A stretch of 57,580 nt of DNA, the filler included, from Jimgerdemannia flammicorona (Eukaryota): the NCBI GenBank assembly GCA_003990765.1. It is 3 parts of 3 records of this genome, joined end to end, with 100 filler letters (N's around TTAATTAATTAA, not from the genome) between each part and the next. Parts side by side here need not be neighbours in the genome. Positions count along the whole stretch, not along the records: positions 19,231 to 38,357 come from RBNJ01002021.1; 2 more parts are not named here. One strand, 5' to 3'. The notes under the pieces were generated by a model. The model was given only the letters and a program-made list of their open reading frames with translations. It was not told where the DNA came from and made no database searches. Every line of letters starts with the position of its first letter. Position 1 is the stretch's first letter. The position numbers and the translations under genes were made by a program. Positions 15,383-46,550 of the stretch are shown here, piece by piece.

Positions 15383-18300
15383 ATGAACAGTACAACCAAC
15401 ATTTTCTCTCTAAATGTGAATGGGTTATGGGGTCCTTTTCAGCATTAGAACATTTTTGCTTGGTTGAAGAGATTGGAGGCTGATCTCTTTATTTTGCAGG
15501 ATGTCAGGTGTGAGGATGATTTGGATAGACTGGAATGGATGAAGGAATGGGGAGGTGAGGCTGTATGGAAAGGCAATGTGGGGATTCTAGTTCAGAGAGG
15601 TAGAGGGGAGATATGAGAGGTGGGGAGCTGGGGTGATAGACTGGTCTGGAGAGAGTGGATTTGAGCAGGTTGAGAGCCAGTTATAGTGAGATCTAGCTAC
15701 TATCCTGCTGTTGGGGGGAGCAAGTGGACTGGGTGAAGGGTCTCTCTAAGAGAGTGGGGTACTTACAGAGGCTGAAGTAGATATACTTGGTGGGGACTTC
15801 AATATGGTCTGGGATGTATTGGTAGATAGAACTGATAGAGGGTGGGGGGCTGAGGGAAGGAGTGGAGGTCTGGAGACATGAGAGAAAATAGAGAGACTGA
15901 GTGTGCTAGTGGATGCTGACAGGAGATTTTGGGGTAATAGGAGAGTATATACACACTGGGCCAGGGGATTGGGGACAAGGATCAATTGGGTTTTGATGAC
16001 AGATTGCTGGAGCTTAGATGTTTGGAAATCATTGGAGGTTGAATGGTGTCTATAGTCTGATCATTGGGGGCTGTTGGGACAGGGACATTTTGGGGGGAGT
16101 AGAGATGGGCCTGGACATTGGTGCCTCAATTCCTCTTTATTGGATAATAAGGAGTTGTGGGACAAGTGGGCTATGGACATTCAGCAGAAGGTGGAGGGCT
16201 GGGTACAGGAGATTGCCCCAGTGGGTGTCCAGTGGAAGAGGCTGAAGGATGCTGCTAGGGTCTACTGGAGAGAGGCTAGCAAGATGGCTGATAGACAGAG
16301 GAGGAGAAGAGTAGGGTGGACTTCTGCTAGACTGGCTTGGCTTCTGGAAGATTGGGCTAGTCTGTTGGCCCTAGAGGGAGGGGAGGACTGGAGATTGCTA
16401 CAGGTACAGAAGGAGGTGGTAGAGTTGCAATTGGTGGTGAGGGAGAAGGAGGAGGTAAGAGTGCAGAGTTTGGCAGCATGGCTGTATTGGCAGGGACTAG
16501 AGGAAGGAGAGAGGCCCTCTAAGTTTCTCATGAGAGCTCTTTGGGTGAAAAGAGTCAAGCAGTGGTGAGAGGGGGTATTGGATACAAATGGTCATCTGTT
16601 GTATGGCATATAAGATATTCTCAGATTATTAAAGAAGAGGTGGAGTGATCTGTAGAGTGAGGAGGAGGGGGGGGTGGATGATGCTGCCATTGACCATGCT
16701 TTAGAGGATTGGCACCCACCACCAGTGGAAGGGCTGAGCAGTCTGATGTTACTAGTATGAGAGAAGAAGATTCACCAGGTTCTTGCCACAACTATACTAG
16801 GCATAGTACTAGGGGAGGATGATCTGTCTTGGGACTTTTGGAAGAAGATGGTAGGAATTCCTGGTGTAATGGGAGAGCTGATGGCTATGTATAACTTGAC
16901 ACTACAGTCAGGTCATTGGGTAGGTGAGTAGGATCTGGGGCTGGTGGTACTGCTCTATAAGAATAAAGGCAGGAGAGAGGACTAGAGGAACTGGAGACTG
17001 ATTATGCTGCTAGATATAGATAGAAAGTTAGTTACTAAGTTGGTAGTGGCTAGGTTGCAGAAAGTGGCCCAGCAGGTCTTAGGGGAGAAGCAGCAGGGCT
17101 TTGTAGGAGGCTGGCTCATTAGGGATAGTATAGCTTGGATACATAGCATTATTGAAGGGGCATGAGCCTGTAGATTGGATAGGTGCCTGGTTTTTCTGGA
17201 TCAAGAGAAGACATATGACCATGTTTGGCAGATCTGAATGGCAAAGGTTCTGGATAGGATTGGTGTACCTCAGCAATTCAGAGTGGTGATAATCAGTCTA
17301 CTGGAAGGGAGTAGAGCTGTACTTATATATAATGGGCACTGAGGGGAGGCCTTCTCTCTGGATAGGGGGGTTCTCCAAGGGGACTCTTTGTTACCTATTC
17401 TGTATGCACTCTCATTGGAGCCACTGATGGATAGAATTTGGCAGAAGATAGTAGGGCTCTCAGTATTAGGCATAGATTGGAAGGTTGGAGCCTTTGCAGA
17501 TAATATAGTAGTTGGTCTGGGATTGATCGCAGATGTTGAAAAACTCAAGGTGACAGTAGAGTAGTATGAGGTGCATTCTGGAACTAAGCTCAATTAGTAC
17601 AAGTGTGAGACAATGGTGTTAGGTAATAGTCTGGTAGAGGAGGATGTCATTGGAACAATTGTCTCAGCTGGAGAGATAGTGTGATATCTAGATATCTATC
17701 TCTTAGTGTATGGGTCAGTCTTACTGAGAGCTTGGTGAGAGCAGTGAGTTGAGATCTAGGGGGAGGTCCTGCAGAGTTGGGGGGGCTACCATATGTCTCT
17801 AGCAGGGCAGGTTGCTATCTTAAATGTATACTGGCTACCAAAGCTGTAGTACTTGGCCTATCATCTGGACTTCTTGGCCTAAGTGGTGAAGAGATTGTTG
17901 AAACTGACCAAGGGGTGGATCTGGGCTGAGAGGAGGAGTCAGATTAGCTGGGAAATCTTATCTTTGCCAGTTATTAGAGGAGGTCTTGGGCTGGTTGACT
18001 TACCAAGGAGGCTGCATTGCCTGCAAGCATGGTGGCTGAAGAGAGTAGTGGAGTTGAGAGAAGGTAGTTGGGTTCCTCTGATAGAGAGGGTCTGAGAGAT
18101 GAGGTCTATGCCAAGAGGCTCTACAGGTGATCTGCTGTCCTTAGTTGGACTTCAGAACAATGGTCACATGTGATATAAGGGCTTCTGGTGAGGGGTTGTG
18201 GATGGAGTACATTGTATTGGAATCCACTAGCAGAGAGATGAAGGAGAGCTGCCTTGGGGCCCCACAATGTGAAGATGGGATCATGTTCTGGTGGGGGGCA

Positions 18301-19060
18301 TCTCATTACTTGACTTTGATATTAGTGATAGAGTTGAGTGTCAGGGGAGATTAGGACAGGATTTGTGGTAGGTAGCAGCAGACAGATATTGGAGAGGAGT
18401 GGGACTAGAATGGAGTCTAGACCTGGTGTACTGAGGTCAGGCAGTAGTTGCCACCAAAGTACTGGGTGGTCTGGTAGCATATGCTGAGGAGAAATGTTAT
18501 ACTCAACTTTCACTCAGGCCATCTGGTTGAGGGGGGAAGTTTTGACTGTGAGGAGTACTATAATGTAGGACAGGAAGGGGGTTTTGTACAGATACCAGAA
18601 CATTGGTTAGGAGAGTGTGAGGTGCTGGGTAACTTCTGGTTGGCAGTTGGGCATCAATTGGGTATAGTACATAGGAGAGATGGTATGAGAGGCCAATGGG
18701 AGGATTTGCAGAATAGATTGATAGGAGGGGTTGAGAAGGAGTAGCTCACCCTAGGTTGGGTTATGGCTGTATGGGTGGGGTTTGTGGGTTACTAGTTGTT
18801 TGTTTTCAAGGATGGAAGGAGTCTAGGACTAAGAGCATAGTTGCTGAGATAGAAAGGATTGATGGAGGACATTCTGATGGGCTGGTGGCTTGGTTGGGGA
18901 CTGCAGGGAGGTTGGCAGTATAGTTTGGTAAAGAAAATATGTGGGCAGAGTGGAGAGAGAGTTGGGGTAGTAGGGGATAGAGTGTCTTTCAAGTATGCTA
19001 GGTTAGATGGAGGGACCCCCCTAGGGGGATTGGGTAGTGGGAGGGGATACTGTAACTATA
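15383..19060 (+). pseudogene. LINE copy 2 ORF2 (EN-RT)
   Basis: MNSTTNIFSLNVNGL, GGDFN, QGDSL/AFADN and C-terminal DCEE..EHWLGEC. Confidence 0.9.
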
Positions 19061-19130
19061 TCTATAGTCTGGTAATTGGTAATAAATTGGAAGTCCAAGT
19101 GATTATAAAAAAAAAAAAAAAAAAAAAAAA

Positions 19131-19230: not shown

Positions 19231-20247
19231 TTTTTTTATAGTCACTTAGACTTTGCCATTTATTACCAGTCTATTAATAAGGTTACAGTATCACCTTCTA
19301 CTACCCAATTCCCATAGGGGAGCCTCTCCTTATATTATTACAAATAAAGACTACCTTCTCACCCACTACTCCAACCCTCTCCCCATTCTGCCCACAGACT
19401 TTCTCCACTAAGCAATACCTCTAACTACTCTACAACCTCCAACCAAGCCACTAGCCTATCAAAGTGTCTTCCATAAGCTATTGCTATCATAACAGCCAGA
19501 CCCCCAAGCCCAGTCTCCACCCATCCTCAAAAACAAATAACCAGTAACTGGCCAGCCCTATCTAAATTACCAAAACCTAACCTAAGGTCAGCCACTCCTT
19601 CTCCACCCCCCCCACCAGTCTATCCCTTAAATTCTCTCACTGATTCTGTGCACCATCTCTCCTACACACTACCCCCAAATAATCCCCAACAGCTTGTAAG
19701 TATCTTACACTCTCCTAGCCAATATTCAGGTATCTGCACATATCCCCCTTCCTGCTCTACATTGTAGTACTCCTCACAGTCAAAGCAATTCTCCTCAATA
19801 AGGTGACCTGAGCAGAGATTGAGTATTATATTTCTCCTCAGTATGTGCTACCAGACCCAGTGGCATCCACTTTCTCACCTTAGTACTCTAGGCCCAAACT
19901 CTATATCAGTTCCACTCCTCTCCAATATCCACCAACTGCTATCTGCTAGACTACAGATCCTAGTCTGGTCCCCTTTGGCATTCTATCTCATCACTAATAT
20001 TGAACTTAATTAAGAGAATGTCTCCCAGTAATACTTGGTTCCATCTCCACATTACCAGGTTCTAAGCCACCTCTCCTTCATTTCTCTGCCAACAAATTCC
20101 TATATGGTGCACCCCCTCTACTACTTCCCACCAGAAGCCTTTATATCTCAATTATCCAGTATTCCAAAGCCCAACCAAGGATAGTAGATCTCCTGTTGAG
20201 CCTCTTGGTGAGGATCTCATCTCTCAGACCTTCTGCAATAGGGGGAC

Positions 20248-21295: not shown

Positions 21296-21377
21296 ACTCC
21301 TTTCTCCAGTAATATTCAGGTTACACAATCTTTGGCAATACTTTCAACACAGTTTCTGAAGAAAAGCTACTAGTATT

Positions 21378-23407
21378 ATGGTGACCAACGAGCATCTGGA
21401 GGTGCGTACTGGGCAGGGTGGCCCTAGAGCATTTGAATGACAGCAAGTGGAAAGAGGCCCTGGCTTGGGGGGAAGTATGAGGGGCCTGCTGGTGGGAGGC
21501 CATGGTGGAGGAGGGGGCAGAGCTGGAGGGCAAGGGGCTAGCAGGGTGAGCTTTGCGGAGAAGGTGAAGGAGGGTCAGCAAGGGGCTGGACTGGAGAGCT
21601 GGCTGCAAGGGGGGAAGGTACTGGTGAAGGCTGCCAGGTAGCAACCTCTTGGGGGTACCTCTCTGGAGGGCTATAGGGGTGGAGCTGGGGGGGTAGCGGC
21701 TGGGGCAGGGACTGCTGATGGGGGTGTAATGGGTGATCTGGAAAAAATCTAGATGGGACTGCTGATAGTGAGCCGAATGGTGGGAAGGACACGAGGCCTG
21801 GGGACCTGGCAGATGGTATAACAGGACTAGCAGTGGCTCTGTTACTCAAGAAGTTGATCTTGGCATTCGCAGTTACACTGTATTTCCAGGGTTTAGCAGT
21901 GACAGCGAAAATGGTATTGGGGCTTATCGCTAAGCAGGTGGCTGGAGTGGCTTTGATGAAGTTCCTGAAGAGACTGGAGGGGGTGGAGGTGGGTTTTGAG
22001 GAGGTCGAACTACTAGAGGAGGCACTGAGGGTTGGGCTGGTGGTTGGAGAGGTGTGTGTTCTGATGGCGAGGTGTTTGAAATGAGATCCGAGGGTGGTCC
22101 AACTGCTGGTGAAAGGAGTCCCCATGGTGATGGTGATGGAGACAAGGAAGAGGGTAGAGGATGTCATGGCGGAGTATGGTGAGGTAGTGGATATCGGATT
22201 CAGGGTCTGGGAAGGGACTACACTCAGGACTGGGAACATGGATGTGAAGATTCAGCTGGCTGGAAAAGAGGCTACTGGGAAGACAAGGGACTGGCCTTCG
22301 GCGATGGTTTGGGGTGCATTCCTGTGCAAGGTGATGTGGGTGAAAGAAAGTGAAGAAGAGGAGGAGGATTTATTGAAAGTGCTGGAGGAGCTGAATGGGA
22401 CTGTGGAATGGCGGGCCAAGGCCTGGAAGACTTTCGAGGAGTCGATATGCCTGGAGATAGTGGATGGGAAGAGAATTCGAGTAGACAAGGTACAGTGAAA
22501 AAGGGCTCAGGGGCAGAAGAGGCAGAAGGATCTGCTGGCTAAACTGGGGGGTGGACCGCAGAAGGATATGAGCATGAAGACAGGTGCAGAAGGGGCCAGA
22601 GTGAGTGTCTGGGCTGGTGAGAGGAGTGGGAATGATGGGGCAATGACAGGGAAGGCAAAGGAGGTGACGATTAGCAACCCATATGCAGATGGCACCTTGG
22701 AGGTTTGGGAGGAAGTCTGGGAGAACTCCCCCACCCCTTCCCCTCTTATCAGGCATGGCCCGGCTTCCAGGAACAAATCTGGGGAGGACGTGATAATGCT
22801 AGGGACCCAGCAGGTGAAATTCAGCATCCCGGAGGTGATGGATGGGGACTAGGTAGTGGCAGCTGGGGAGGAGGAACTGGTGGATGTCCCGGAGGTATGG
22901 GATGAGGATGCGAGTGCTGGAGCTGACACCACGATGCTGGATGGAGGGAGGCTGGTGACCCCTGGTGGGAAGGAGGTGGGGAACCTACTTTGGATGTACC
23001 AGATGATGAACAACCTGATGGCAGAAGAGCTGGGGGAGGTGGACTTGCATGGGATGGGTGATGAGCACTGGGCGAGAATTTTGCAGTAGGAAGGAGTGGC
23101 GATGGCACTGAAGATAGAAATTCTCACAGTGTATCTGGAGGAGGAAGGGTATGAGGTAGACAAGGAGAGGGAGGCAGAGTTGGCAGTTATCACTGGGGAG
23201 AAGGCTGAGTACTGTTGGAACAGGTGTCATGGGTTGCAACTTTGGCAGGAGGCTTGCATCGAGTACAGAGAGGAGTTTGAGAAGAAGGCTAATGAGGAGA
23301 TAAATGAGCTGTTGGATGGACTGGAGGCTCAGAGGGCTGAAGAGGAGGAGGTGATAGCTGAACACAATCTGGACACGGCACAGGAGGAGATGGGCATGGA
23401 GCAGTAG
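21378..23407 (+). pseudogene. LINE copy 3 ORF1 (~670 codons)
   Basis: ATG at 21378; RRM-like KGVP...AEYGEVVDIGFRVW; acidic helical C-terminus ending MEQ*. Confidence 0.88.
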
Positions 23408-23437
23408 GAATTGATTGCAAATAAACCGTATTTCATT

Positions 23438-26400
23438 ATGAACAGTACAACCAACATTTTTTCTTTGAATGTGAATGGGCTAAGGGGTGCATTTAGATGC
23501 AGGAACATTTTTATTTGGTTGAAGGGATTGGAGGCCAATCTTTTCCTCTTACAGGATGTCAGGTGCGAGGATGATTCTGATAGGATGGAATGGACTAGGG
23601 AATGGGGTGGCATGGCGATTTGGAACAGCAAGGTCGGGATTCTGGTTCGGAAAGGCAGAGGGGTGATACAGAATGTGAGGAGCTGGGGGGAGAGACTGGT
23701 TTGGGGTGAGTGGATTCATGCAGGTTGGGAGCCAGTTATGGTTGGCTCCTGTTACTGCCCTGCTGTGCGGAGGGAGCATGTGGATTGGGTGAAAGGGCTC
23801 TTGGAGAGTGGGATCTTTGCTGAAGCTGGGTTGGATATACTTGGAGGTGATTTCAATATGGTTCGGGATGTACAGCTAGATAGAACTGATGGAGGATGGA
23901 GTGCTGAGAGCAGGAGTGGGGGGCTGGCAATGTGAGAGGAGGTCGAAAGGCTAGGAGCACTGGTGGATGCTGGTAGGGAATACTGGGGGGACAGGAGGGT
24001 ATGTATATACGCATTGGGCTGGAGGCCTGGGGACAAGAATTGACTGGATTCTGATGGCTGACTGTTGGGGCCACGATATTTGGAAGGTGCTAGAGGCAGA
24101 ATGGTATCCATGGTCAGACCACTGGGGCTTTTTGGGACAGGGGTGTTTTGGGGGAAGTGGTGATGGGCCTGGACATTGGTGCCTGAATTCCTCCTTGTTG
24201 GATGACGAGTCCCAGTGGGAGGAGTGGGCAAATGACATTCAGATGAAGGTGGTGAATTGGTGGCAAGAAGGGGCCACAATTGGGGTTTGGTGGAGGAGGA
24301 TGAAAGAGATGGCCAGGATGTACTGGAGCGAGGCTGGCAGAGTGGCTGGGAGGCAGCAAAGGCAGAGAGTGCATTGGGCTTCTGCTAGATTGGCTAGGCT
24401 TCTGGAGAAGTGGGTGAGTCTGGCAGTAGTGGAGGGAGAAGAGGATTGGAGAATAATGAGAGTGAAGATGGAGGTTGGGGAACTACAACAGGTGCTGTGG
24501 GTAGAGGAAGAGCTAAGGGTGCAAGGCCTGGTGGCGTGGCTTTGTTGGCAGGGGCTGGAGGAAGGGGAGAGGCCTTCCAAGTTTCTTACGAGGACACTTC
24601 GAGCGAGAAGGGTACAGCAGCAGTGGGAAGGGGTACTTGACTCAGATGGTAGACTATTGCATGGTGTACAGGATATCCTTGGAATGCTGAAGGCGCGATA
24701 GAGTGGATTGTGGAGTGAGGAGGAGGGTGGGGCAGATGCTACAGCCATTGAACAAACATTAGAAGATTGGCACCCTCTACAAGCTGAGGGATTAGGCGAT
24801 CTGGTGATGCCTGTAAAGGAGGATGAGATCTACCAGGTTCTTGCTGCAACAGCCTCAGGTATGGCACCTGGGAAGGATGGCCTCCCCTGGGACATCTGGA
24901 AGCGAATGGTTGGAGTCCCAGGTATATTGGGAGAGTTGACGGCACTGTGTGACTCCATATTGCAGTCAGGGAGATGGGTGGGGGAGCAGGATCTTGGGCT
25001 GGTGATGCTGCTTTATAAGAACAAGGGAAGGCATGAGGATTGGAAGAACTGGCGGCCGATAATGTTGCTAGATATGGACAGAAAGTTGGTGACTAAGGTA
25101 GTGGTCGCGAGGCTGCAGAAGGTGGCCCAACAAATTGTAGGTATTGAGCAGAGGGGCTTCATAGGGAGTCGGCTTATTCGAGATGGCATGGCCTGGGTAC
25201 ATGGAGTTATTGAGGGTGCTCGAGCCTGTGGCCTGGATGGGCATCTTGTCTTCTTGGACCAGGAGAAGGCATATGACCGAGTGCAGTGAGTATGGCTGGC
25301 GAAAGTGTTGGATAGGATTGGGGTTCCAGTCCCTTTTCGGGCAGCAATGGTCAGCCTACTGGAAAGGAGTAGGGCTGCACTTGTGTGTAATGGGCATAGA
25401 GGGGTAGTATTCCCTCTGGGTAGGGGAGTGCTCCAGGGGGACCCACTGTCCCCCATTTTGTATGCACTTTCCTTGGAGCCTCTAATGGACCAAATTCAGC
25501 GGAGGATTGTGGGGCTTTCTATCTATGGAATTGGCTGGAAAGTTGGAGCCTTTGTGGATGACATGGTGGTTGGTTTGAGAGTAACTGTGGATGTTGAGGA
25601 GCTCAAGAAGACAGTGGAGTGGTATGAGGAGTACTCTGGGGCGAAGCTGAATTGGCACAAGTGTGAAATGATGGTGCTAGGTAATGGACTGGTAGGTGGA
25701 GAGGTTATTGGAACAATTGTCCCCATCAGAGAGGCAGTGCAGTACTTGGGTATATATTTGTCAGTCTATGGGTCTGTTCTGTCCAGGCTGTGGTGGGAGC
25801 AGAGAATTGGAATTTGGGAGGAGAACCTGCAGGGTTGGGGGGGAAGACACTTCTCTCTGGCAGGAAGGATCTTGATTTTGAATATATACTGGCTGCTGAA
25901 ACTGTGGTATTTGACTTATCATCTGGACTTCCCAGCCTGAGTGGTGAAGCAATTGGTGAAGGTGACCAAGGGATGGATTTGGGCTGGCAGACAGAGTCAG
26001 ATTGGTTGGGAGATACTGTCCCTACTGGTGGCGAGAGATGGTCTTAGGTTGGTGGACTTCCTCAAAAGACTTCACTGCTTGAGGGCATGCTGGCTTAGGA
26101 GGGTGGTAGAGTTGCATGGAGGGAGCTGGGTTCCCCTGCTACAGAAGGTATGGGAGAGGCGGACATCACCAAGAGGCTTAACTGGTGATCTTCTTTCATT
26201 AGTTGGGCTTCAGAACACTGGGTAACTGCGATATAAAGGCTTCTGGTGGGGGATAGCCAAGGGGGCACACCACATTGGTATTCACTGGCAAGGGGCTGAG
26301 GGGGAGAGGGCTTGGGGTCCAGTGATGTGGAGATGGGATGGCATTCTTCTGGGAGGCATGCCTTTACTGGAGTTTGACATTAGTGATGGAATCAAATGCC

Positions 26401-27069
26401 AAAGGGGACCAGGCCAGGATCTGTGGCCTAGTGGTTGGCAAGGAGTCGAAATTGGTGAGGAGTGGGACTGGCAGGGGGTTTGGACCTGGAGTGCCATGGT
26501 GAAAAATTGGATGCCGCCGAAGTACTGGGTGGTCTGGTGGCGGGTGCTGAGGAGGAATGTGATGCTTATCTTCCACTCAGGACACCTTGTGGTAGGGGGC
26601 TGCTTTGACTGTGAGGAGTGCCATAATGTAGGGCAAGAAGGGGGATTTGTACAGATGCCAGAACATTGGCTTGGGGAGTGTAAGGTGTTGGGTGACTTTT
26701 GGCAGACTATTGGGGACCGCTTGGGGGTAAGGCATAGGGGTGATGATGTATGGGGGAGGTGGGAGGATCTGAGAAATCAATTGATAGGAGGGGTAGGGGA
26801 AGAGTGGATTACTCTAGGCTAGGTGTTGGCTATTTGTATTTAAAGAAGGGAGGTGACAGAGCTTGGGGAGCTGGTTATCACGGTGGCAGTACCTTATGGA
26901 GGATACCTTGACAGGCTGGTGGCTTGGTTGGGGGCTGCAGGGGAGTCAGAGGCACTGCTTGGTGGTGAAAATCTGTGGTCAGAGTGGTGGGAGAGTTGGA
27001 GTTGTTGGTGAGAGGGTGGTCTTTACACATGAAGAGGTGGGGAAGGGTCCCCCAATGGGGATAGGGTAG
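23438..27069 (+). pseudogene. LINE copy 3 ORF2: AP endonuclease, RT, C-terminal Cys/His finger
   Basis: SLNVNGL, LQD, GGDFN, RIDWI and WSDH (endonuclease); PGKDG, WRPI, LDQEKAYD, QGDPLSP and AFVDD (RT); CFDCEEC..EHWLGEC. Confidence 0.95.
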
Positions 27070-27132
27070 AGGGTGGTGTTATTGTATACTTATTCATAGA
27101 CTGGTAATAAAGATGGAGTCCAAGGGACTATA

Positions 27133-27187
<55 letters not shown>

Positions 27188-30529: not shown

Positions 30530-30945
30530 TTTGTCAGTGCTGCTAAAGCCTTTCTGATCTTGCTTGGTTGGAGACAGCTTGGTGACTTCTTTGATGACTG
30601 GTAGGGTGGCTTGCTCCAGAATGAGCTGTGCAATTCTGTCACCTTCATTGACAGTATATGGTTGGTTCTTGTGGTTAACTAGCAGGACTTGCATTTCACC
30701 TCAGAAGTCAGGGTCAATGACTCCAGTACCAATATCCAATGAGTACTTGAAACTGAGGCCAGATCTTGGCGCAATCCTTGCATAATATTTCTTGGGGATT
30801 TTAACTGAAAGGCCAGTTGGAATGAGCCTTCTTTTATGTGCAGAAATAGTGACTTGTTGTACTACTTGAAGGTCCAAACCAATGGCTCCTTCTGACTATA
30901 CTTGAGAGATCTGGGCCTTGGGGTTGACTTATATGAAATTGAGTA
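30530..30945 (-). pseudogene. dut: dUTPase of element C, between gag and protease
   Basis: IGLDLQ, RIAPRSGLS, GVIDPDF*GEMQVLL, GDRIAQLI and QKGFSST. Confidence 0.95.
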
Positions 30946-30959
30946 CAACTTCTTATTCA

Positions 30960-31201
30960 ACTGGTTGACCTTGGGTGTCTTTGGACAGGACTAGAATCCT
31001 CTTTGGTTCAGCAGTTTTCTTGAGATATTTAGTTGCAATGTAATCAGACTGATGGTAAAAGAAGCAGGCTCTAGCCTTCTTGAGATGCCCCTTTTCCTTG
31101 GGTGTAAGCTTGTCTTTTTTGTTCTTGTCAATAGTGTCTAGGTCCATGGGGGCAGGTCCAACAGTTCTGACTTTGGGTTCCTCCTTTCTGTGGTTGTTGT
31201 T

Positions 31202-31263
<62 letters not shown>

Positions 31264-33215
31264 AACTCAATGTCCTGTAGAATTTTATTGGAAGGGAACC
31301 TAGACTATATAGGCCCAAATCCTCCCCCACCACCCATTAAGCACTGCCCCCCCATTAACCTAGGCTAGCTATTATCCAGCAGCTCGACCATGCCAGGTGC
31401 AGCAGGGCCTATATTGGACCACATCTCATTCTGTGTACCATGCTCTCTCTACCACCAGGGGAAACCCAGCCATACACCAATGACCGAAAGTGCACACCTG
31501 AGAACCCAACATATATATAAGGCCATGCCCAAGCCGAATAGAATAGCCCCTGCTACCTCAAAGAGAATGACAGACAAAGAAAAACTCTTATCAAAGTACA
31601 ACATGGTGGGTAGGGCCTGGTTCTCCTAGTTGAGGTGAGTAAAGGACTTACACATGAGGTGGGAGGAGACCCCCAATACTCCACTACTCAAGCCTGTGGA
31701 CCTTGATCATATTGCTATATCAGCTCCTGGTTCCAGTTAAGTGCAGCCAAGATACCTGAAATGGGTAGCCTTGGGCCCCCTGACCCCCCCTGATGACTAG
31801 AGCCCAACTCACCAATCTGCCAAAAGAAGCTGAGAGTGACACCTACTACCTAACCATGCCACACCAATCAAAAGACCCCACTGAAGCAGCACTCACCCTA
31901 GCCCTGACGACTGTCCCTAGTCTGGCACCCTACTGATTCACTGTTATCATCCTTCCTCCTATCTGTGATAGCCATCTCCTCTCCCATCCCAACAACATCC
32001 AAAAAGCAGTCACCTATGCTAGAACCATGCTTGCTGGGAAGCTCACCAAAGTCAGAGGGCTCCACCATAGGTACTGAAGACCTGTAGGTAACCTATACTG
32101 AGTACTTGACACCTAAGGTCAGCTGACTCCCTATGTAGCCTGAGACACACCAAGACAATACCTTGTTGGTGACAGCAAAAGGAAGAAGGCACCACACCAA
32201 AACGAATGCACTCTAGACACAGCCGAAGGCACCAGAAACTATGAAAAAGTGGAGAAGACACTGATCTGATACCAATAAAGAGGCAACTCATCACTATTGC
32301 CTCTCTCCCACTGCTCTGTAATAGGTACAGTAAACCAACCCAAGGTAGAGGGGGTAATAATTATAGAAAGTGGACTTGGAAGGTTGCCTACCAAACCATT
32401 GTGACTAGTAAGGTAGTGGAGAAAGGAGCATGTGGTTGTTATTATTGTTGAAAGATGGTCTCTTCTATTCAAAGTAGTAACTATAGGTGATGATATCAAA
32501 CCTATCAGCAATTTTCATTGCTGTATCTAGGTCCTTGGGTTCTTCTAGTTCAATACAAACTTGGGTTTGACCTTTCAGGCCTCAGATATACTTGTTGACC
32601 TTCTCGTCTTCAGTGATATGTGGTAATTCTAGCAGGATTGACAGGAATTGTATATTATATACTTATATAGACTTAAGTTGTTTGACATTTGCCAGATGGT
32701 CTTGTGTAGTCTTAGTGCTGTTAACTGGTTTTAATTGGCCTTGAATAGCATCAGAGAATTCACCCCAGGTCTTAATTCAGCCAGAGAATCTGATATTCTG
32801 GACATGATTTCACCACCAGATTGCAGCATTCCCTTAGAGAAGTATAGTGGTAAATTGGACTAGTGTTGCTTCTTCCAAATTGGTCAGTTCTCCATATTGC
32901 TCCAATTGGAAAAGCTAGGCATCAGTAGACAGTCCTCCTCTTTGACCATCAAAAGTGTTGGGCTTTTGGGGCTTGATAGTGACTGTTGTCAGATATATTG
33001 ATGTTGGTAGAGGTACAGAGGTATGAGCAGAAGCCTTGCTTTCCTTTCTTTCTATATGTTCTTGAAGTTGAGCAATCTGAGCTAATGCAGTCTGAAAAAG
33101 ACTCTTGATGGCCCCATTTGACTGAGTAGGGTTTTGCTATTCCTCTTCTTCTTGCTGATTGTATGAGGCATTGCCTGGACCATAGATACTATATGAAGAA
33201 TTCTACCCATTGTCC
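30960..33215 (-). pseudogene. gag: Gag of element C, split by the retroposon at 31205-32430
   Basis: IKPQKPNTFDG, GNAAIWW, DEKVNKYI*GLK, GPAPMDLD and decayed knuckle ACFFYHQSDYIATKY. Confidence 0.85.
31205..32430 (-). mobile_element. Non-autonomous ~1.2 kb poly(A) retroposon (SINE-like, non-coding), copy 1
   Basis: Poly(T) 31203-31259 with AATAAA upstream on the minus strand; 16-bp TSD TGTGGTTGTTGTTGTT (31189-31204) / TGTGGTTGTTATTATT (32431-32446); second copy at ~55890-56302. Confidence 0.88.
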
Positions 33216-33691: not shown

Positions 33692-36600
33692 GAGATCCAG
33701 CTACCCCCTCTCAACTCCACTGCTCTCTTTAACCACTATGCTCTCAAGCAGTATAGCCTCTTTGGAAAGTCAACCAGCCCAAGACCTCCTCTTGTCACTA
33801 GTAAGGATAAAATCTCCCAACTGATCTGACTCCTCCTTTCAGCCCAGATCTACTCCTTGGTCAGCTTCAATAGTCTCTTCACCACCCAGGCTAGAAAGTC
33901 TAGATGATAAGCCAGATACTATAACTTCAGCAGCCAATAGATATTCAAAATCAAGACACACCCCACTAGAGGCAAGTGGCAACCTCCCCAACTCTGCAGG
34001 GCCTCTCTCCAGATTACAACCCTCTGCTCCCATCAAAGTCTTGATAGGACCAACCCATATACTGATAAATAGATACCTAAGTACCACACTACTTCTCCAG
34101 TAGAGACGATTGTTCTAATAACATCCCCTCCCACCAGTCTATTGCCTAACACCATTGTTTCACACTTGTGCTAATTGAGTTTAGCCCCAGAGTTCTTCTC
34201 ATACTACTCTACCATCTTTTTGAGCTTCTCAACATCAGTGATTGATCCCAGGCTGACCACTATGTCATCCACAAAGGCCCCAACTTTCCACCCAATTCCA
34301 AAGACTGAGAGTCCTACTATTTTTCATCAGATTCTGTCTATTAAAGGTTCTAGGGAAAGAGCATACAGGATGGGGGACAGTGGGTCCCCCTGGGGTACAC
34401 CCCTATCCAGGAGAAATAACATCCCTCTATATCTATTACACATGAGTGCAGCCTGATTTCCTTTCAGTAGGATGATTATTGCTGACCAGAACTAGTATGG
34501 TACCTCAGTCCTATCTAAGCCAGACTCACTATACCTAGTCATAAGCCTTCTCCTGGTCTAAGAAGACCAGTAACCCATCCAGTCTATGAGCTTGTACCCC
34601 TTCAATAACTCCATGTACCCAGGCTGTATCATCCCTAATGAGCCAGTCTCCTACAAAGCTCCTCTGTTCAATACCCAAGACTTGCTGGGCCACCTTCTGT
34701 AGTCTCATGACCACTACCTTAGTTATCAACTTTCTGTCTATATCTAGCAGTATAATTTGCTGCCAGTTCTTCCAGTCCTCTCTCCTTCTCTTGTTCTTGT
34801 AAAGCAATGTCACCAGCTCCAGATCCTGCTCCCCCACCTATCTCTCTGACTGTAGTATAAAATCACACAGTGCTATCATCTTCCTCAGTACTCCTGAGAT
34901 CCCCACTATCTTCTTCCAGAAGTCCCAGGGCAGACCATCCTCTCCAGATACCATATCCAGCATTGTCATGGCAAGAACCTGGTGGATCTCTTCCTCCTGT
35001 ACTGGCAATACTAAGTCACCCAGCCCATCTGCCTGTAGGGGGTACCAATTCTCTAATATCTAGTCAATAGCAGTAGCATCAGCCCCACCCTCCTTCACAC
35101 TCCATAATCTACTCCATTGCTCCTTTAACAATCCAAGAATGTCTTGTATACCATGCACCAGTATACTATCAGAGTCAAGTACCCTCTCTTACCTTTGCTG
35201 TACTCTTCTTATCTGAAGGGCCCTTATGAGATACTTTGAGGGTCTTTCCCCTTCCTCCAAACTCTGCCAATAAAGCCATACCACTAAGCCCTACACCCAT
35301 GTCTCTTTCTCTTCCCACAACACCTGTTGTAATTCTCTAACCTCCATTTTTGCCCTCATTAATCTCCAATCCTCTCTCCCCTCCAATATTACTAGTTCTA
35401 CCCAATCTTTCAAGAACCTAGTCAGTCTAACAGAAGCCCATCTCACCCATCACCTCCTCTGCTTCTCAGCCTCCTTACCAGCCTCACTTCAGTAGACTCT
35501 GGTCATCTCTTTCATCCTCATCTACTAGATACTAACTGGGGCACCTTTCTGCCTCCAGCTCTCCACCCTCAGTTGAATGTTCTCAGTCCACTTATCTCAC
35601 CAGGTCCTATCATCTAATAATGAGGAATTGAGGTACCAATGTCCAGGCCCATCCCCACTCCCCCCAAAATGTCTCTGTCCTAACAGCTCTCAATGATCTG
35701 ACCATGGACACTACTCCACCTCCAGCAACTTCCAAATATCCAAACCCCAGCAGCTAGCTATCAAAATTCAGTCAATCCTCATTCCCAGGCCCACTGCCCA
35801 ATGTGTGTATACTCTTCTATCCCCCCAACACTCCCTGCCAGTATCAACCAGAGTACTTAGCCTTTCCACTTTCTCTTATACTGCCAGCCCTCCACTCCTA
35901 CCCTCAGTTCTCCATCCTCCATCAGTTCTATCCACCAGTATATCTCAGACCATATTGAAGTCTCCTCCAAGTATATCCACCCCAGCCTCTGCAAGGACCC
36001 CACTCTCCTGGAGACCCTTCACCCAATCCACATACACCCCATACAGTGGGGCAGTAACAGGAGCCCCCCATGACCAGCTCCCAGCCTATATATATCCACT
36101 CTCCCCAGACCAATCTATCCCCCCAGCTCCTTATATCATGTATCTCCCCTCTGCCTCTCCAGACCAGAATTCCAACCTTACTCTTCCAAACTGCCTCACC
36201 TCCCCAATCCTTCATCCATTCTAGCCTATCTAATCATTCTCATACCTAATATCCTGCAAGAGGAAGAGATCAGTCTTCAATTCCTTCAGCAAAGTAAAAA
36301 TGTTCCTATGTTAAGAAGAGCCCTACAACCCATTCACATTTAAAGAAAAAATATTGGTTGTACTATTTATAATAAAATATAATGTGGTATCAAGTCCATC
36401 CTCTATTGCTCCATATTTATCTCTTCCTGTGCTATGTCCAGATTATGTTCTACAGTTACCTCCACCTCTTCAGTTCTCCTTGCCTTTAATCCAGCCAACA
36501 GCTCATTCATCTCCCCATCTGTCTTTTCCTCAAACTCCTCCCAGTACTCCAGGCAGGCCTTCTGCCAGAGCTGCAATCCATGATGCTTATTCCAGTAGTA

Positions 36601-38288
36601 GTTGGCCCTCTCACCAGTAACACCTGTCAGCTCTGCCTCCCACTCCTTATCTACCTCATATCCTTCCTCCTCCAGATATACTACAAGAATTTCTGTCTTC
36701 AATACTATCACCACTCCATCTCTCTACAAGATCCACACCTAATGCTCATCACTCATTACTCTCAGGTACATCTCTCCCAACTCTTCAGCTGCCAAGTTAT
36801 TTATTATCCTATATATCCAAAGTAGGTTCCCCATCTCCTTCTCTCCAGGAGTCACTGGCCTCTCTCTCTCCAGTATTATAGTGTCAGCCCCAGCACTTGC
36901 AGACTCATTCCATACCTCCAGGACATCCACCAATTCCTCCTCTCCAACTGCCACCACTTGTCCCCCATTTGCTACCTCTGGAACTCCAAATTGCACTTGC
37001 TGGGTCTCCCACATTAGTACATCCTCTACCACCTAGCTCTGAGAAGCCAGACCTCACCTGATAAGCAGAGTAAGAGTAGGTGAGTCCTCCCAGACCTCCT
37101 TCCAGATCTCAAACATACTATCAGCATATGGGTCCTTGCCTGTCATCTCTCTATTCTCTCCTGTCTCCTTCCCTGCACTCTCTCTATCCTCATCAGCCTA
37201 GATACTCACTTTGGTACCCCCCATCTCCTCAATTCCACCCACATCCTTCTGTAGTCTACTCTCCAGCTTAGCTAGCAGCTTCTTCTGCCTCTTACATTCC
37301 TGTACTCTTTTCCACTACCTCTTGTCTACTTGAATGTACTTCCTATCTACTATCTCCAAATGAGTCAACTCAACAAAAGCCTTCTAAGCCTTCACCCACT
37401 GCTCTACAGCACTACTCAGCTCTTTCAGTGCTTCTAATAAGTCCTCTTCCTCCTTCTCACTCCTCTTCACCCTTGTTACCTTGCATAAGATTGTCCTCTA
37501 GATCATCACCAAAGACCAGTCCCTTGTCTTTCTAGTAGCTTCCTTCTCTGCCAACCAAATCCTCACATCAACATTCCCAGTCCTGAGCAAGGTCTCTTCC
37601 CAGACTCTGAATCTGATATCTACCACCTCTCTATACTTGGCCATGACCTCCTTGACTCTCCTTCTCATCTCCACTGCCATCACCATGGGCACTCCTTTCA
37701 CCAGCAGTTGAACTACCCTAGGATCCCATCTCAGACAACATGTCATTGGAACACATACCTCTCCAACAATCAATTCAGCCTTCAGCACCTCCTCTAAAGA
37801 CCCAGCATCCTCAAAGCCCACCTTTACTCCCTTCAATCTCTTCAGAAACTTTACTGATGCTGCTTCAGCCACCTGCTTAGTGATAAGCCCCAGCACCATT
37901 TTTACCATCACCACTAGGTCCTGGAAGTACAGTATAACTACAAATGCTGAGATTGACTTTTTGAGTAATAGGGCTACTACCAGGTCCATTATACTATCTG
38001 CCAAATCCCCCTGCCTTCTAAGCCCCAACTGCTCAGTCTTACCACCAGCAGTTACATCTGGATTTTTTTCCAGATTGGTAGTCTCATCACTATCAGCCAT
38101 CATATTCATCCTAGCCACTACACCCCCAGCTCCACCACCTTTACTGCCAAGAGCTACTCCCCTATATACTGCTGCCTTCCCCATCTCCTTGCCTTTCCTC
38201 AGCCATCTTTCCAGCCCAAATGCCTGCTGTCTCTCCTTCACTGTCTTGCAAAGCTCACCCTTCCAGACTCCTGTCCTCCATTACTGCT

Positions 38289-38293
<5 letters not shown>

Positions 38294-38904: not shown

Positions 38905-39185
38905 AATAAATTAAATTAAATCAAATTTGACCCAAATTTAATTCAGTCAATTCAAATCAAAGATCAGATTCAATTTGAACCTATTTTTTAAAATATAATA
39001 ATCTGATAAATATATGTCCAAATATAATGACTCTTAGCTTGTTAGATTTCTCTATATAAGAGAAATCTAACAAGCTAAAGATTATAAAATTTGAATATAT
39101 TTCATTAAGATATTATATTTCTAAGAATAGGGTTTGAATCAGACCCTCAATTTGATTTGATTTAAATTGATTCAATTCATTTAGA
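38905..39185. repeat. AT-rich foldback palindrome (MITE-like)
   Basis: Perfect 20-bp inverted repeat 39034-39053 / 39059-39078 with a 5-nt loop, flanked by imperfect arms. Confidence 0.75.
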
Positions 39186-42242: not shown

Positions 42243-42450
42243 TGTGACATACACAATTGACAATGGAGTACCGGTGACTGCTAAGATCAGACGACATAAT
42301 GGCGTGACAATCAAATAGACAGCCTGACCCATTAGGTGATCATCCCAAAAGAAGACAAGATGATCCGAGCCAAAATGAAGACCATGTTATTTAAAGGAAC
42401 CATACTCCACCTCGGGGATCGGCACCAAAGAACCAAGTACCCACCACACA

Positions 42451-43437
42451 ATGCCTCCTATTCGCCGAACCAACCAGACCTCCCGCCACTCTACCCCTTT
42501 GCCTGGCCCAAAGACCCTGATCTTTGAAGCTATCAAGATGGCCATCTGGCGCCCAGATACTTCCGAACACTTGAACTTCTACACCGAGGACCTTGGACAC
42601 TTCATCAACTACCGGTATATCATGACCCAACAGCTCAAAGATACTACTGAACGAATGACCCTCTGGCATGACTATGAAATCAGATACCGTCTTTGCAATG
42701 AGACTCAAGAAGATGACTGGGAAGGCCTCATTACCAAATTGATAACCACTAGCCGGCTAATCAAGAGAGCCCTCCGTGTCCACCAAATCTTCCACCATAT
42801 TCCCTGGGCCATAGCATACTTGCAAGGAGTAATGGCTGGCAGCCTCTCCTGCCTTTCAACTGAAGATACTGACTGGATAGAATCTGAAGTAGCCAACGCT
42901 ATTGGCAGCAACTGCATCGCTATAGGAAGCCAACAAACTGAACCTACTCAGCCAGGTTTCCACACCACCCCACTCTGAGACAACCATCAAGGTCACCTAA
43001 TGAGTCTTATGGAGATATTTGAAGGACTGCCCATTACCATAGAAGCACCTGTTGGAGCTACCCCAACCACCCACCACCTTGTCAGCCACAATTCACACCT
43101 CATCATTTGGGAACCGAATCAAGAAGAAGCCCAAGAGGTTCCTGTCTTTGAAGAGGAGGCCCAAGAACTCCAAGGCCCTGCCCCTGAAGAAATCCCCTCT
43201 GACACTGAAACTGATGAGTCTTCAGAAGAAGAAGAGGAGCAACAGAGAGTCTACCAGTCCTCTGTCCGCATTCAAGCAATTCAGGGACTGGAAAATGTTG
43301 TTGAAGATGACTGGCCACTTTTCTACCCCCTCACCTCTTGGCCAGTGCTTCCCCCCTTTGAGGAGAGATATGATGAAGAAGAAATCACAACCCAGTAAGA
43401 TTTACCCACCGCAGATGAAGGGTACTATTCCCTCTAG
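42451..43437 (+). pseudogene. LTR(U3)-encoded ORF-U of element E, ~328 codons with two in-frame stops
   Basis: ORFs 42451-42978 and 43000-43398 share a frame; stops TGA (42976, likely from CGA) and TAA (43396; CAA in the 3' LTR copy). Confidence 0.8.
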
Positions 43438-43470
43438 AGTACTGCCCATCAGCCATGAGAACCCGGCTTT

Positions 43471-43731
43471 TGTCAGCAAGTCTGTTTCCAGCATTGCTAC
43501 CCAGTACCACCATTTTCAGCATTTTTGTCAGCAAGTCCATTTCCAGTGTTGCTACCCAGTACCACCGTTTACAGCATTTTTGTCAGCAGGTCCGAATTCA
43601 GCATTGCCACCCTCCACAACTGCTTCTGGCAACAATCATCATATCATGTCAGCTCATCCGAATCCAGCATTGCTACCCAGTACTACTATTTTCAGCATCT
43701 TGTCAGCAGGTCCGAATTCAGCATTGCTATC
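43471..43731 (+). repeat. Tandem ~55-bp repeats (about 4.5 units) upstream of the LTR TATA box
   Basis: Units starting TGTCAGC at 43471, 43526, 43581, 43647 and 43701. Confidence 0.85.
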
Positions 43732-44644
43732 TCTTATAACCCAATCCATAGTAAACAATAGCCTGCACCTCACATCGTGCAAGCCAATAGCATAGCAAAT
43801 GTTTGCCACAACATAGTATACCTTAGCCATGCCCATAGCTAGCAAACTTGTATAAATAACCCATATTCTTAGAGTGAATAAACCTCAGCCAGTTTGTGTT
43901 TAAAAGTAAAAAGGAATTACCGAGAAACCTCACTGCCTCAAAGAGACCAGATAAATTCTGAGAACAAGATAATAACCTAGAGCAACAGATCGCTCGGAAG
44001 TTTGAGTTAAAGAATTTTCTCTTGCCATGGAAAGAAAACATTACCCGACCGCTGCCATTCAAGACCCAAGACCCAGCCAAGGATTCAAGACTACGACCTC
44101 CATGTATTCAGACCGCCATTCAGACTGCCGCCATTTGACTGCCACTCGAGATTCAAGACCCAGAAACCCAAGGATACCCAGCCAAAGGATACTAGACCGC
44201 CAAAGACTGACCCACTGCCAAGATACTCGAATGACTGCCAAAGACCCAAGTTATCTCACCCTTTCAAGTTAACAAGTCAAGACAGACGAGCGAGCCGTCG
44301 ACTGATTCCCGACCTACTGCGCCACAAACTGCTTAAAGCCAAGGCCATTGCCACATAAATTCAAGTTCACCACCAAGTTAATCGCCACCAGGAATGCCCT
44401 TATCCACTAAACAATTGAGCCACCATCGTTGAACAACTGAATGACCTCATCATCAAACAATTGAGCCATTGTCAAACAATCGAGCTCCTGCTATTATCAA
44501 TTACTGCATGAATCGAACAACCTGTCATATGACCATCAACCCGCGAACATCACCAATGTCTTCAGTTATCCATCGCATGCTTCACTAGTGGCATACATTG
44601 AGCCGTGCAGTTGAAGTTCATTATACAAACTGCACGCCACATAT

Positions 44645-44662
44645 TGGGGGCTCCACCAGGAA
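44645..44662 (+). promoter_or_regulatory. Primer binding site of element E (tRNA-Pro-like)
   Basis: TGGGGGCTCCACCAGGAA, 3 nt after the LTR; resembles the tRNA-Pro PBS TGGGGGCTCGTCCGGGAT. Confidence 0.75.
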
Positions 44663-44710
44663 AGTTTTCAAAAGACTTGACCATTTGGCTCAAGAACCCA
44701 GCTATCTACA

Positions 44711-46550
44711 GTGAAGAACTTAGCAGGACCAAGTCAGCAACCAAACCAGGGGCAGCAACAGCCCTCCTCAGCAGAAAAGAAAGCCCACACCCTTGTCAGA
44801 ACAGTAGCCAGGACCCTATTCAACACCAGTAGCCAGAAAACCGAATCAGAAGAAAGAAGTGACCCAGATTATGGTTTGACTTCAAGAGAAAGGAGACGAC
44901 TCAGAGGACAACCAGAACTACCCCTTCAGATCCAAGACTTAGGCCAAGAAGAAGAAGCGGATATTCCCGAGGAGTATCAGACTCTTATCCATAGGAAGAA
45001 CTCAGACAGAAGTGACTACATAACTACTGTTGTTACTCAAGTCACTCCACTAGACTGGGTTTACTTTGAAACATCAGAAGGAGAAGAGGACTACCATCCA
45101 TATCAACCAGAGCAAGACAATGATTGGGGATCAGACCATCAAAGGGACGAATTCAACCTATACTATTATCCAGACAGCGACACAGACCCACAACAGGCAA
45201 ACAAGACTTCACTACTTCACAACAGCAAGGGGCAGATGAACTCACTATCAGTTATATCAGTCCACTCCCACCATCAGTTGCTTGAACTTCAGTACCCTGG
45301 TCACTCACACCTTGCCACTATCACCAGTCAATCAGAAGATCTCCACCACTATCCAGGACTTCAACCCCAGCATTAATTAGAAGAGCCAGATTACCCTCAC
45401 CCTCACCAAGACACCACCCTCTGCCAGCACCACTAGACCATCAAGTACTAGCACCACCACCTTCCCCATCACCCCAAGGATTTACCAGATCTCCTACCCC
45501 TGAACAATACTCAGATAGTGAAGATGAGCCAGATATGAGCTACCTTCAGAAGTTCCATGGTGCTGACAATGAAGATATCAAGGAATTCTTTGGAGAAATT
45601 GAAGTTCAAGCAGCTGCCAAACAATGGGATGCTGCAAGAAAACTCAGAATTGTGGAGTCACTTCTGAGAGGACCCGCCCTACAGAGATATAATCAAGCCA
45701 AGTAAGCCAGAGGAGGAATCCATATCGAGGAACTGAATGATGGCCTTCAACCTGATAGAAACCATGTAGCAAGATATATGATTCACAAAGCCTGGCTCCA
45801 TGCCCAGTTCAATGGATTCAAGCGCCAACAAGAAGCATAGAAGGCTTTGACCTATATGAGCCAAGCTGCCAATGAAACTCCCAAGTGTTTCTACCATTGG
45901 ATTCAAGCTCAAATGATTAAGGTGAACCTTCAACCAGCAGTTCAACTGGCTCTAGCCTCAACTACCTTCCTCAATGGCTTATACCCAGAACTCTGAAGGC
46001 AAGTTATCAGGATGGGATATCGAAACATTGAACAGCAAGTTGCTGGAGCACAAGGATGTTGGGAAGCAGATTATAGACCAGTACAACAAGTACAAGGCTA
46101 TCCTGAGCCAATCTGAGCTGAAACCCCACCTGCTTTAACTGTGGAAATCAAGGCCACATCCAGAGGAATTGTCCAAGGAACCAATCCACCCAGTCCAATG
46201 ACAGAAATATCAACCTCTTTCAGGTAGATGAAGAGACTCAGGAGATGGAAGAAGAAGCAGCCTGGCTCCATGATCAAGAGGACGACATCTACCCATACTT
46301 CGAGGCTTTTCCATCCAAGGTGACATAGGAAGCTGCCCCTGTAGAGACCAGAGGATGAGGAAGACCATGAAGGAATCCCCCATCTCAACTGCCAGTAACG
46401 GTATCCACTGGCAAGCATCCGTGACATGGCCATTCTTCTTCAGACACTCCACAAGAACAGGAGAAGTGAGTTAGAAGAGATACTCCTGAACCAGAAGCCG
46501 GACCATCTAGGACAACCCCCAGCTCTACCCTGCCAGACCTTGAAGAAGAT
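44711..46550 (+). pseudogene. gag: Gag of element E (long low-complexity N-terminus, capsid-like region from ~45535)
   Basis: QKFHGADNEDIKEFFGEIEVQAAAKQWD...LLRGPA and TFLNGLYPEL, typical retrotransposon capsid signatures. Confidence 0.75.

What the first reader, a model, noticed from the sequence alone, without database searches (positions are those of the whole stretch)
31205..32430. Long non-coding poly(A) retroposon that appears to borrow the LINE's terminal motifs
Seen: a 1.2 kb insert with poly(A), AATAAA and a 16-bp TSD, no convincing ORF, and a second copy on another contig (55890-56302). Its 5' tip (CTCCTTTCTCCAC) matches the LINE 5' tip (CTCCTTTCTCCAG, 21297-21309). Its 3' end loosely follows the LINE 3' UTR (GGGTGGTGGG..TATAGTCT..AATAAA..TTAT-An). 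The interior shows no LINE similarity by eye and has hairpins (AGAGGCAA-TAGTGATGAG-TTGCCTCT; TAGGTTACCTA retained in both copies). I see no tRNA A/B boxes. Inference: a bipartite non-autonomous partner of this LINE family, or a retroposed structured ncRNA.
Basis: partly seen in the sequence, partly recalled or inferred. Interest (0 to 1): 0.7.

Follow-up and report, generated by a model that had tools for sequence, protein, structure and literature searches.

The report
LINE-headed non-coding retroposon family
This 1.2-kb insert is one of thousands of copies of a gene-less jumping element that probably starts with the same switch-on sequence as the genome's LINE retrotransposon and borrows its copying enzymes: a known kind of parasite, with an unusual partner and two possibly conserved RNA hairpins.

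Summary
Real. The insert (31260-32430, minus) belongs to a family with at least 2,986 heads and 2,564 tails in this genome. It has two subfamilies (1,170 and 1,188 nt), poly(A) and 11-20-bp target duplications. I found no coding constraint, tRNA or Rfam match. The co-resident LINE is of the L1/Tx1 group. The first ~55-65 nt resemble the LINE 5' UTR beyond chance (0 of 2,000 shuffles). The tail link is weak: not significant overall, with one 11-of-13 match in subfamily 2. The ~1 kb body is not detectably LINE-derived and does not fold better than shuffles. Two local hairpins show modest covariation. Best reading: a Pol II-type non-autonomous retroposon with a LINE-derived head, copied by LINE ORF2p; transcription and mobilisation are inferred. 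It works like Eg-R1, Sadhu and NARTc; it is neither a Pol III SINE nor a simple internal deletion of the LINE. The scan noted what is probably this family before on other DNA of this genome (e1-7552570, e1-7507835, e1-7416174; not confirmed by sequence).

The parts
31260..32430 (-). Retroposon body, 1,171 nt, subfamily 1; 82 of 158 CpG positions and 63 of 1,012 other positions differ from the family consensus
32365..32428 (-). Head, about 55-65 nt, related to the LINE 5' UTR; probable internal promoter (inferred)
32279..32304 (-).
32085..32095 (-).
31676..31751 (-). About 75-nt module, 88% conserved between subfamilies amid 60-65% flanks, duplicated in subfamily 2; rod-like hairpin with GCAA tetraloop and compensatory pairs (decayed in this copy)
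31539..31584 (-). Second hairpin (11 bp); 7 of 7 pairs touched by subfamily differences stay paired (picked after a scan)
31284..31289 (-). AATAAA polyadenylation signal, about 23 nt before the poly(A)
31268..31283 (-). Short stretch resembling the LINE's terminal motif (11 of 13 in the subfamily 2 consensus; weaker in subfamily 1 and decayed here)
31205..31259 (-). Poly(A) tail
31189..31204 (.). Target-site duplication, 3' copy
32431..32446 (.). Target-site duplication, 5' copy (2 mismatches in 16)
21298..27187 (+). Full-length, broken copy of the presumed helper: L1/Tx1-group LINE with about 80-nt 5' UTR, ORF1, ORF2 (APE endonuclease, RT), short 3' UTR and poly(A)
   Evidence: endonuclease on sister copy L070
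55902..56298 (+). Older fragment of the same family (positions 59-456), 69% identity
29810..33200 (-). Host Ty3/gypsy-type gag-protease region interrupted by the insert (upper bound approximate)

Best explanation
A high-copy, non-coding, non-autonomous non-LTR retroposon. Proposed cycle: (1) an unmethylated master copy is transcribed by Pol II from an internal promoter in its first ~60 nt, which it shares by descent with the 5' UTR of the resident L1/Tx1-group LINE (similarity shown; descent and promoter function inferred); (2) the RNA is cleaved and polyadenylated about 23 nt after AATAAA (sequence shown, process inferred); (3) LINE ORF2p acts on it in trans, through the poly(A) and perhaps a short LINE-like terminal motif, and inserts it by target-primed reverse transcription, leaving 11-20-bp duplications and some 5'-shortened copies (footprints shown, helper inferred); (4) new copies decay mainly at CpG, as expected from methylation (decay shown). 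Master lineages have swapped segments and duplicated a hairpin module (shown). The hairpins may help the RNA join the LINE particle or stabilise it (speculative).
For: Copy number: 2,986 exact head and 2,564 exact tail motif matches, reversed controls 0; 9 copies in 40 stretches chosen by contig number, 394,770 bases. Fixed ends with unrelated flanks in the 30+30 loci fetched. Target duplications in 31 of 49 evaluable full-length copies, 17 of 31 being 16-17 bp; the LINE gave 13-15 bp in 4 of 12. Head versus LINE head: 0 of 2,000 shuffles at 40, 60 and 80 nt for subfamily 1 and 0-1 of 2,000 for subfamily 2; still 2-6 (subfamily 1) and 14-25 (subfamily 2) of 2,000 with the first 10 nt removed. 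An unanchored profile of 32 LINE heads lands on element nt 5-69, 0 of 300 shuffles as high (subfamily 2: 5 of 300). LINE: best solved relative human L1 ORF2p (E 6e-36) versus R2 (2e-17), APE plus RT, 1,849 head matches. Non-coding: in the one shared 95-codon ORF 7 of 10 lineage-level changes are non-synonymous against about 73% expected, and no frame stands out. Eight T runs of 4 or more per consensus and no A box in the first 500 nt; ARAGORN 0 of 8 loci.
Against: No transcript, start site or mobilisation was observed. The tail is not significantly LINE-like over 40-120 nt (108-642 of 2,000 shuffles); the short motif after AATAAA is significant in subfamily 2 (43 and 12 of 5,000) but not subfamily 1 (1,149 and 985 of 5,000), and was picked by eye first. 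The head could be a host core-promoter motif reached independently; host start sites were not examined. Only part of LINE diversity was sampled, so a closer helper may exist. 18 of 49 evaluable copies gave no duplication with my strict finder, and I ran no swapped-flank control for it.
Confidence: 0.78

Rival explanations
1. True bipartite derivative: an ancient LINE lost its ORFs by internal deletion, and both ends plus a body degenerated beyond recognition descend from it; mobilisation needs the LINE-type 3' motif.
For: Head similarity. AATAAA followed by an 11-of-13 match to a terminal motif seen at most LINE 3' ends printed, including divergent subfamilies. G-rich sense strand like the LINE.
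Against: Tail not significant globally. Body shows only G-rich matches to 29 LINE-bearing loci (best blastn E 0.013; the lowest tblastx E-values pair opposite strands or non-colinear pieces). An ORF1 N-terminal profile scores no better than 91 of 300 shuffles. Subfamily 1 has lost part of the motif yet is the commoner form (18 of 20 unselected tail loci match its body or middle best).
Confidence: 0.12
2. Retrocopies of a host structured non-coding RNA or mRNA whose 5' end merely resembles the LINE's because both use a host core promoter.
For: Two hairpins covary; a B-box-like word lies inside the module; the head starts with a pyrimidine-rich stretch that could be a generic initiator (inference).
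Against: No Rfam match above chance. No folding excess: z = +2.1 for a young 5' half; 1 of 55 sense windows at z of -2 or lower. Subfamilies with shared diagnostic changes, a mosaic lineage and a tandem duplication show that element copies, not one host gene, are the sources. Similarity persists beyond the first 10 nt.
Confidence: 0.06
3. A small-protein-coding retroposon (HAL1- or ROPIP1-like) using the 95-codon ORF at about nt 134-421.
For: The ORF is open in both consensus sequences.
Against: 7 of 10 lineage-level changes are non-synonymous, as expected without selection; few changes, so power is low; stop-poor 60% GC sequence gives such frames by chance.
Confidence: 0.04

Closest known systems
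Eg-R1 and the BG_Non-LTR family of Blumeria (PMC6022598, passages read)
   Same: Fungal, more than 3,000 copies, non-autonomous, no A/B boxes, internal T runs, AATAAA, read as Pol II-transcribed; family members conserved in their 5' region
   Different: That paper says genomic Eg-R1 copies lack poly(A) stretches; these have them. The passages read name no LINE sharing its head. Eg-R1 encodes a peptide; no coding signal here. Sequences not compared.
NARTc/L1Tc and RIME/ingi of trypanosomes (PMC3383444, passages read)
   Same: ORF-less partner sharing the LINE's 5' end, which there is an internal promoter, plus a weaker short 3' similarity
   Different: NARTc is 263 nt with 97% identity over 77 nt and an HDV-like ribozyme, Ingi clade. 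Here about 70% over about 60 nt, a 1-kb unrelated body, L1/Tx1-group helper, no Rfam ribozyme match.
Sadhu elements of Arabidopsis (PMC2848041, passages read)
   Same: About 0.9-1.2 kb, non-coding, poly(A), target duplications of similar size, no Pol III boxes, conserved 5' motif with pyrimidine patch, presumed LINE-mobilised
   Different: Sadhu is low copy (16-21 full-length) and its transposase source was described as unclear; no sequence relation tested.
ORF-absent bipartite non-autonomous LINEs (PMC5786205, passages and section 23 read)
   Same: LINE 5' end retained, Pol II transcription expected, no ORF
   Different: Reported there only from RTE, Ingi, Vingi and R2 clades and made solely of LINE 5' and 3' parts; here the helper is L1/Tx1-group and most of the length is not LINE-derived.
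Classical Pol III SINEs (tRNA, 5S, 7SL heads)
   Same: Non-coding, LINE-dependent, high copy, subfamily structure
   Different: No small-RNA head, T runs early in the body, 1.2 kb long.

Membership tests
Non-autonomous non-LTR retroposon | Dispersed family with fixed ends and unrelated flanks | tested here: met
Non-autonomous non-LTR retroposon | Variable-length target duplications and poly(A) | tested here: met
   31 of 49 evaluable copies, 11-20 bp; no swapped-flank control run
Non-autonomous non-LTR retroposon | No RT or other conserved ORF | tested here: met
   longest stop-free frame 125-133 codons; no codon constraint
Non-autonomous non-LTR retroposon | Mobilised in trans by a LINE | not testable with these tools
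   inferred from footprints and a co-resident LINE
Pol III SINE | Head derived from tRNA, 5S, 7SL or snRNA with A/B boxes | tested here: not met
   Rfam none above chance; ARAGORN 0 of 8; no 5' A box by a recalled consensus pattern
Pol III SINE | No internal Pol III terminators | tested here: not met
   eight T runs of 4 or more per consensus, first T5 at about nt 183
Bipartite non-autonomous LINE | 5' end homologous to the LINE 5' end | tested here: met
   about 70% over about 60 nt
Bipartite non-autonomous LINE | 3' end homologous to the LINE 3' end | tested here: inconclusive
   global test not significant; short motif significant in one of two subfamilies
Bipartite non-autonomous LINE | Consists only of LINE 5' and 3' parts | tested here: not met
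   about 1 kb body without detectable LINE similarity
Eg-R1/Sadhu-like Pol II retroposon | Long, non-coding, AATAAA, no Pol III boxes, conserved 5' motif | tested here: met
Eg-R1/Sadhu-like Pol II retroposon | Pol II transcript starting at the element's 5' end | not testable with these tools
   no usable raw RNA reads
Eg-R1/Sadhu-like Pol II retroposon | Sequence homology to Eg-R1 or Sadhu | not tested
   reference sequences not available through the tools used
L1/Tx1-group LINE (helper) | Two ORFs, APE endonuclease before RT, L1-like RT | tested here: met
   no tree with RTE/CR1/I references was built
Processed pseudogene | Maps to a single spliced host gene | tested here: inconclusive
   no ORF and clear subfamily/mosaic structure argue against; a parent could hide behind thousands of copies

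The most novel reading that the evidence does not exclude
An L1/Tx1-group LINE has an ORF-less, Pol II partner that keeps the LINE's internal promoter but carries an independently acquired body whose small RNA hairpin modules (one duplicable, GNRA-capped) are under selection to dock the RNA onto the LINE ribonucleoprotein or the ribosome translating it: an Alu-like hijacking strategy reached without a Pol III small-RNA ancestor, in a clade from which ORF-less LINE-headed partners were not listed in the 2018 survey read.
Probability: 0.25. Interest if true: 0.65.

Novelty: new variant of a known kind. Interest (0 to 1): 0.42.

Why it matters
Long Pol II-type non-coding retroposons are known (Eg-R1, Sadhu, NARTc), but in the passages read the helper LINE is unnamed or of the Ingi clade. 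Here element and helper sit side by side in thousands of copies with a measurable shared head, so the shared positions predict the internal promoter of this L1/Tx1-group LINE, and the weak tail link lets one test whether the LINE recognises a 3' motif or only poly(A). The family is roughly 2% of the assembly (estimate) and its exact head matches outnumber those of the LINE subfamilies covered by my pattern (2,986 versus 1,849; patterns differ in recall). If the hairpins are functional they would be candidate cis-signals for hijacking. For most readers it remains a new repeat family of a broadly known sort.

Tried and rejected
Rfam on the window copy, five less decayed or other copies and two module stretches: only chance-level matches. 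zf-RVT and Fungi_SRP searches of the genome gave nothing, but their controls were silent too, so they say nothing; a recalled resemblance of the module's 3x3 internal loop to SRP helix 8 therefore stays untested. The module pattern found 0 matches in metagenome and viral contigs. Sequencing runs: no RNA holder listed. Contigs of 4 runs from 2 studies carry pieces of the element; in X1 (RNA is a guess) cover is higher at both ends and some contigs skip parts of the middle, which may mean other middles but was laid at 85% likeness and cannot show expression. Search for a LINE bearing the element's tail: 29 of 29 best-match loci and 20 of 20 unselected loci had element body upstream. Search for another body behind the head: 25 of 25 continued as element until a contig end or an insertion. 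A LINE subfamily whose head looked closer turned out to be an ordinary LINE with ORF1, sharing only a few extra letters; its 3' end was not fetched. Origin of the 5' half from ORF1: rejected. Structure conservation across the whole body: rejected; directional tests on the 5' half, post-module region and tail were not significant, and with a sequence-only alignment the second hairpin was not either. Sequence look-up and a word look-up in the scan's notes returned nothing. Literature: listings showed no description of this family and one search returned 0 papers; Repbase/Dfam and subscription journals were not searchable, and no supplements were read, so it may be catalogued there.

Full report
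Observation. The insert lies at 31260-32430 on the minus strand, with a 57-nt T run on the plus strand, AATAAA at 31284-31289 and a 16-bp target duplication with two mismatches. It interrupts the gag region of a Ty3/gypsy-type element in the same orientation. The second copy is a 69%-identical fragment of family positions 59-456. The organism is not given; some named LINE relatives are from Mucoromycota and other fungi, others from fish, and the scan's notes call it a fungus, which I did not test.

Family. A DNA search of the own genome scored 40 of 6,163 candidates; all 40 (one being the window copy itself) were near full length, the other 39 at 85-88%. Exact degenerate patterns gave 2,564 tails and 2,986 heads, with 0 for reversed controls. 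These patterns hit 47 and 44 of 60 loci chosen by body, which suggests 3,300-4,000 copies; 40 stretches chosen by contig number (394,770 bases, all from contig starts) held 9 copies in 8 stretches, roughly 5,000 if scaled. Of 103 head-tail pairs, 54 were too close to contig ends or lacked an assembled poly(A); 31 of the other 49 had duplications of 11-20 bp, 17 of them 16-17 bp, and 18 gave none with a strict finder for which I ran no control. Of 20 unselected tail loci, 12 reached within 15 nt of the 5' end and 8 began further in; one of those was merely too decayed for BLAST. Decay is CpG-driven: 18-58% of CpG positions versus 3-7% elsewhere in 30 copies; some copies are 97-98% identical to consensus, so activity is recent.

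Subfamilies. Subfamily 1 (1,170 nt) and subfamily 2 (1,188 nt) are nearly identical over nt 1-560 and the last ~120 nt but differ in between. Clustering 97 full-length copies showed a large lineage (33 copies) with the subfamily-2 first 130 nt on a subfamily-1 body, i.e. a mosaic, and subfamily 2 carries a tandem duplication of a ~75-nt module. Copies of the element, not one host gene, therefore act as masters.

Not coding, not a Pol III SINE. The longest stop-free frames are 125-133 codons. In the one shared 95-codon ATG frame, 7 of 10 lineage-level changes are non-synonymous against about 73% expected, and no other frame on either strand stands out (low power). Rfam gave only chance matches, ARAGORN none in 8 loci; each consensus has eight T runs of four or more and no A-box-like word in the first 500 nt, while a B-box-like word lies inside the module (patterns recalled).

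The LINE. It is about 5.85 kb, with two ORFs, an APE endonuclease and RT, closest among solved structures to human L1 ORF2p (E 6e-36; R2 2e-17); many relatives carry zf-RVT and one is named Tx1. An RT query had 15,345 candidates and a head pattern 1,849 matches. Its 5' UTR is about 80 nt and its 3' UTR about 60-70 nt.

Shared ends. Head: anchored alignment of consensus heads beat all 2,000 shuffles at 40, 60 and 80 nt for subfamily 1 (0-1 of 2,000 for subfamily 2), all ~1,800 windows of a LINE body and all ~3,900 genome windows; without the first 10 nt it still beat all but 2-6 (subfamily 1) or 14-25 (subfamily 2) of 2,000. An unanchored profile of 32 LINE heads found its best site at element nt 5-69 (0 of 300 shuffles; subfamily 2, nt 4-34, 5 of 300). 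By eye the matches fall largely on letters that divergent LINE subfamilies also keep, as expected for a promoter. Tail: not significant over 40-120 nt (108-642 of 2,000). After AATAAA, subfamily 2 has an 11-of-13 match to the LINE's terminal motif followed by nine extra letters (43 and 12 of 5,000 shuffles; chosen by eye first); subfamily 1 is not significant (1,149 and 985 of 5,000). Both tails can end in a small stem-loop, with different arms. Body: no convincing match to 29 LINE-bearing loci, and profiles of both subfamilies found only further element copies in 776,373 unmasked bases; ORF1 origin rejected. No locus showed a LINE with the element's tail (29 of 29 and 20 of 20) or another body behind its head (25 of 25).

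Structure. The RNA is not globally structured (z +2.1 for a young 5' half; 1 of 55 sense windows at z of -2 or lower). The duplicated module folds as a rod with a GCAA tetraloop; among its three master variants 4 pairs change on both sides, reached by 1 of 1,000 in each of two nulls, one keeping CpG context. Ten young real copies, 9 distinct, pair in 97.7% of cells with 0 of 500 shuffles as high, though relatedness inflates this. In a 47-window scan it was the only window at 2 of 120 or fewer. Against it: two of the four changes are at CpG sites, and a two-master directional test was weaker (74 and 42 of 5,000 in one null, not significant in the other). A second hairpin keeps 7 of 7 touched pairs, three with double changes, mostly through G-U pairs (34 of 20,000), but was picked after the scan and vanishes under a sequence-only alignment. 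After allowing for ~47 windows each result is borderline; together they are suggestive. DNA-level correction of inverted repeats is a rival cause.

Mechanism. Shown: fixed ends, duplications, poly(A), 5'-shortened copies, head similarity, subfamily mosaics, CpG decay. Inferred: Pol II transcription from the head, polyadenylation at AATAAA, trans-mobilisation by LINE ORF2p. Speculative: a role for the hairpins. Whether L1-clade LINEs use stringent 3' recognition or only poly(A) varies by lineage (PMC3747384, passages); here the LINE's terminal motif is conserved but the element's copy of it is partial.

Comparison and novelty. It works like Eg-R1 (PMC6022598, passages) and Sadhu (PMC2848041, passages), and shares the LINE-head logic of NARTc/RIME (PMC3383444, passages). 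A 2018 survey lists ORF-less bipartite derivatives only for RTE, Ingi, Vingi and R2 (PMC5786205, passages and section 23); this element fails that family's 'only LINE parts' feature and is not filed there. My searches (listings only) showed no description of it, but repeat databases were out of reach. Verdict: new variant of a known kind, interest 0.42.

Noticed in passing
L017:385-1320 and L155:1-330 (reverse): A different poly(A) element built on a 9-bp minisatellite; the L017 copy has AATAAA and ends with the same five letters AGTCC that occur just before the poly(A) in the LINE and in this family (single copy; may be chance). No LINE-like head was seen in either by eye.
   Followed up: partly
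L168, L175-L186: A young, divergent LINE subfamily (ORF1 about 60-70% identical to the main one) with its own head variant; one copy sits inside an element copy at about nt 289.
   Followed up: partly
window 3920-9772, 13241-19130, 21298-27187, 33697-38293 with 19231-20247: Four or five LINE copies of at least two subfamilies, 71-82% alike.
   Followed up: partly
window 42250-53927: Ty3/gypsy-type element with protease, dUTPase and integrase and long (about 1.8 kb) direct repeats 82% alike; less CpG-depleted than its neighbours.
   Followed up: no
window 30600-30950 (minus): The host gypsy element reads into a dUTPase-like stretch directly after gag (by eye).
   Followed up: no
window 38947-39160: An inverted repeat of about 210 bases, 74% alike.
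   Followed up: no
window 56300-57580: CpG-intact sequence begins abruptly where the old element fragment ends; probably a young insertion or unmethylated region.
   Followed up: no
L158, L135, L163, L209-type clusters on C209: Element copies often lie next to or inside one another (three heads in L158 and in L163; four tails on contig C209).
   Followed up: no
L187, L188, L195, L198, L199, L205, L206: Several copies carry a short interruption a few letters into the poly(A), suggesting a templated A-rich end inherited from a master.
   Followed up: no
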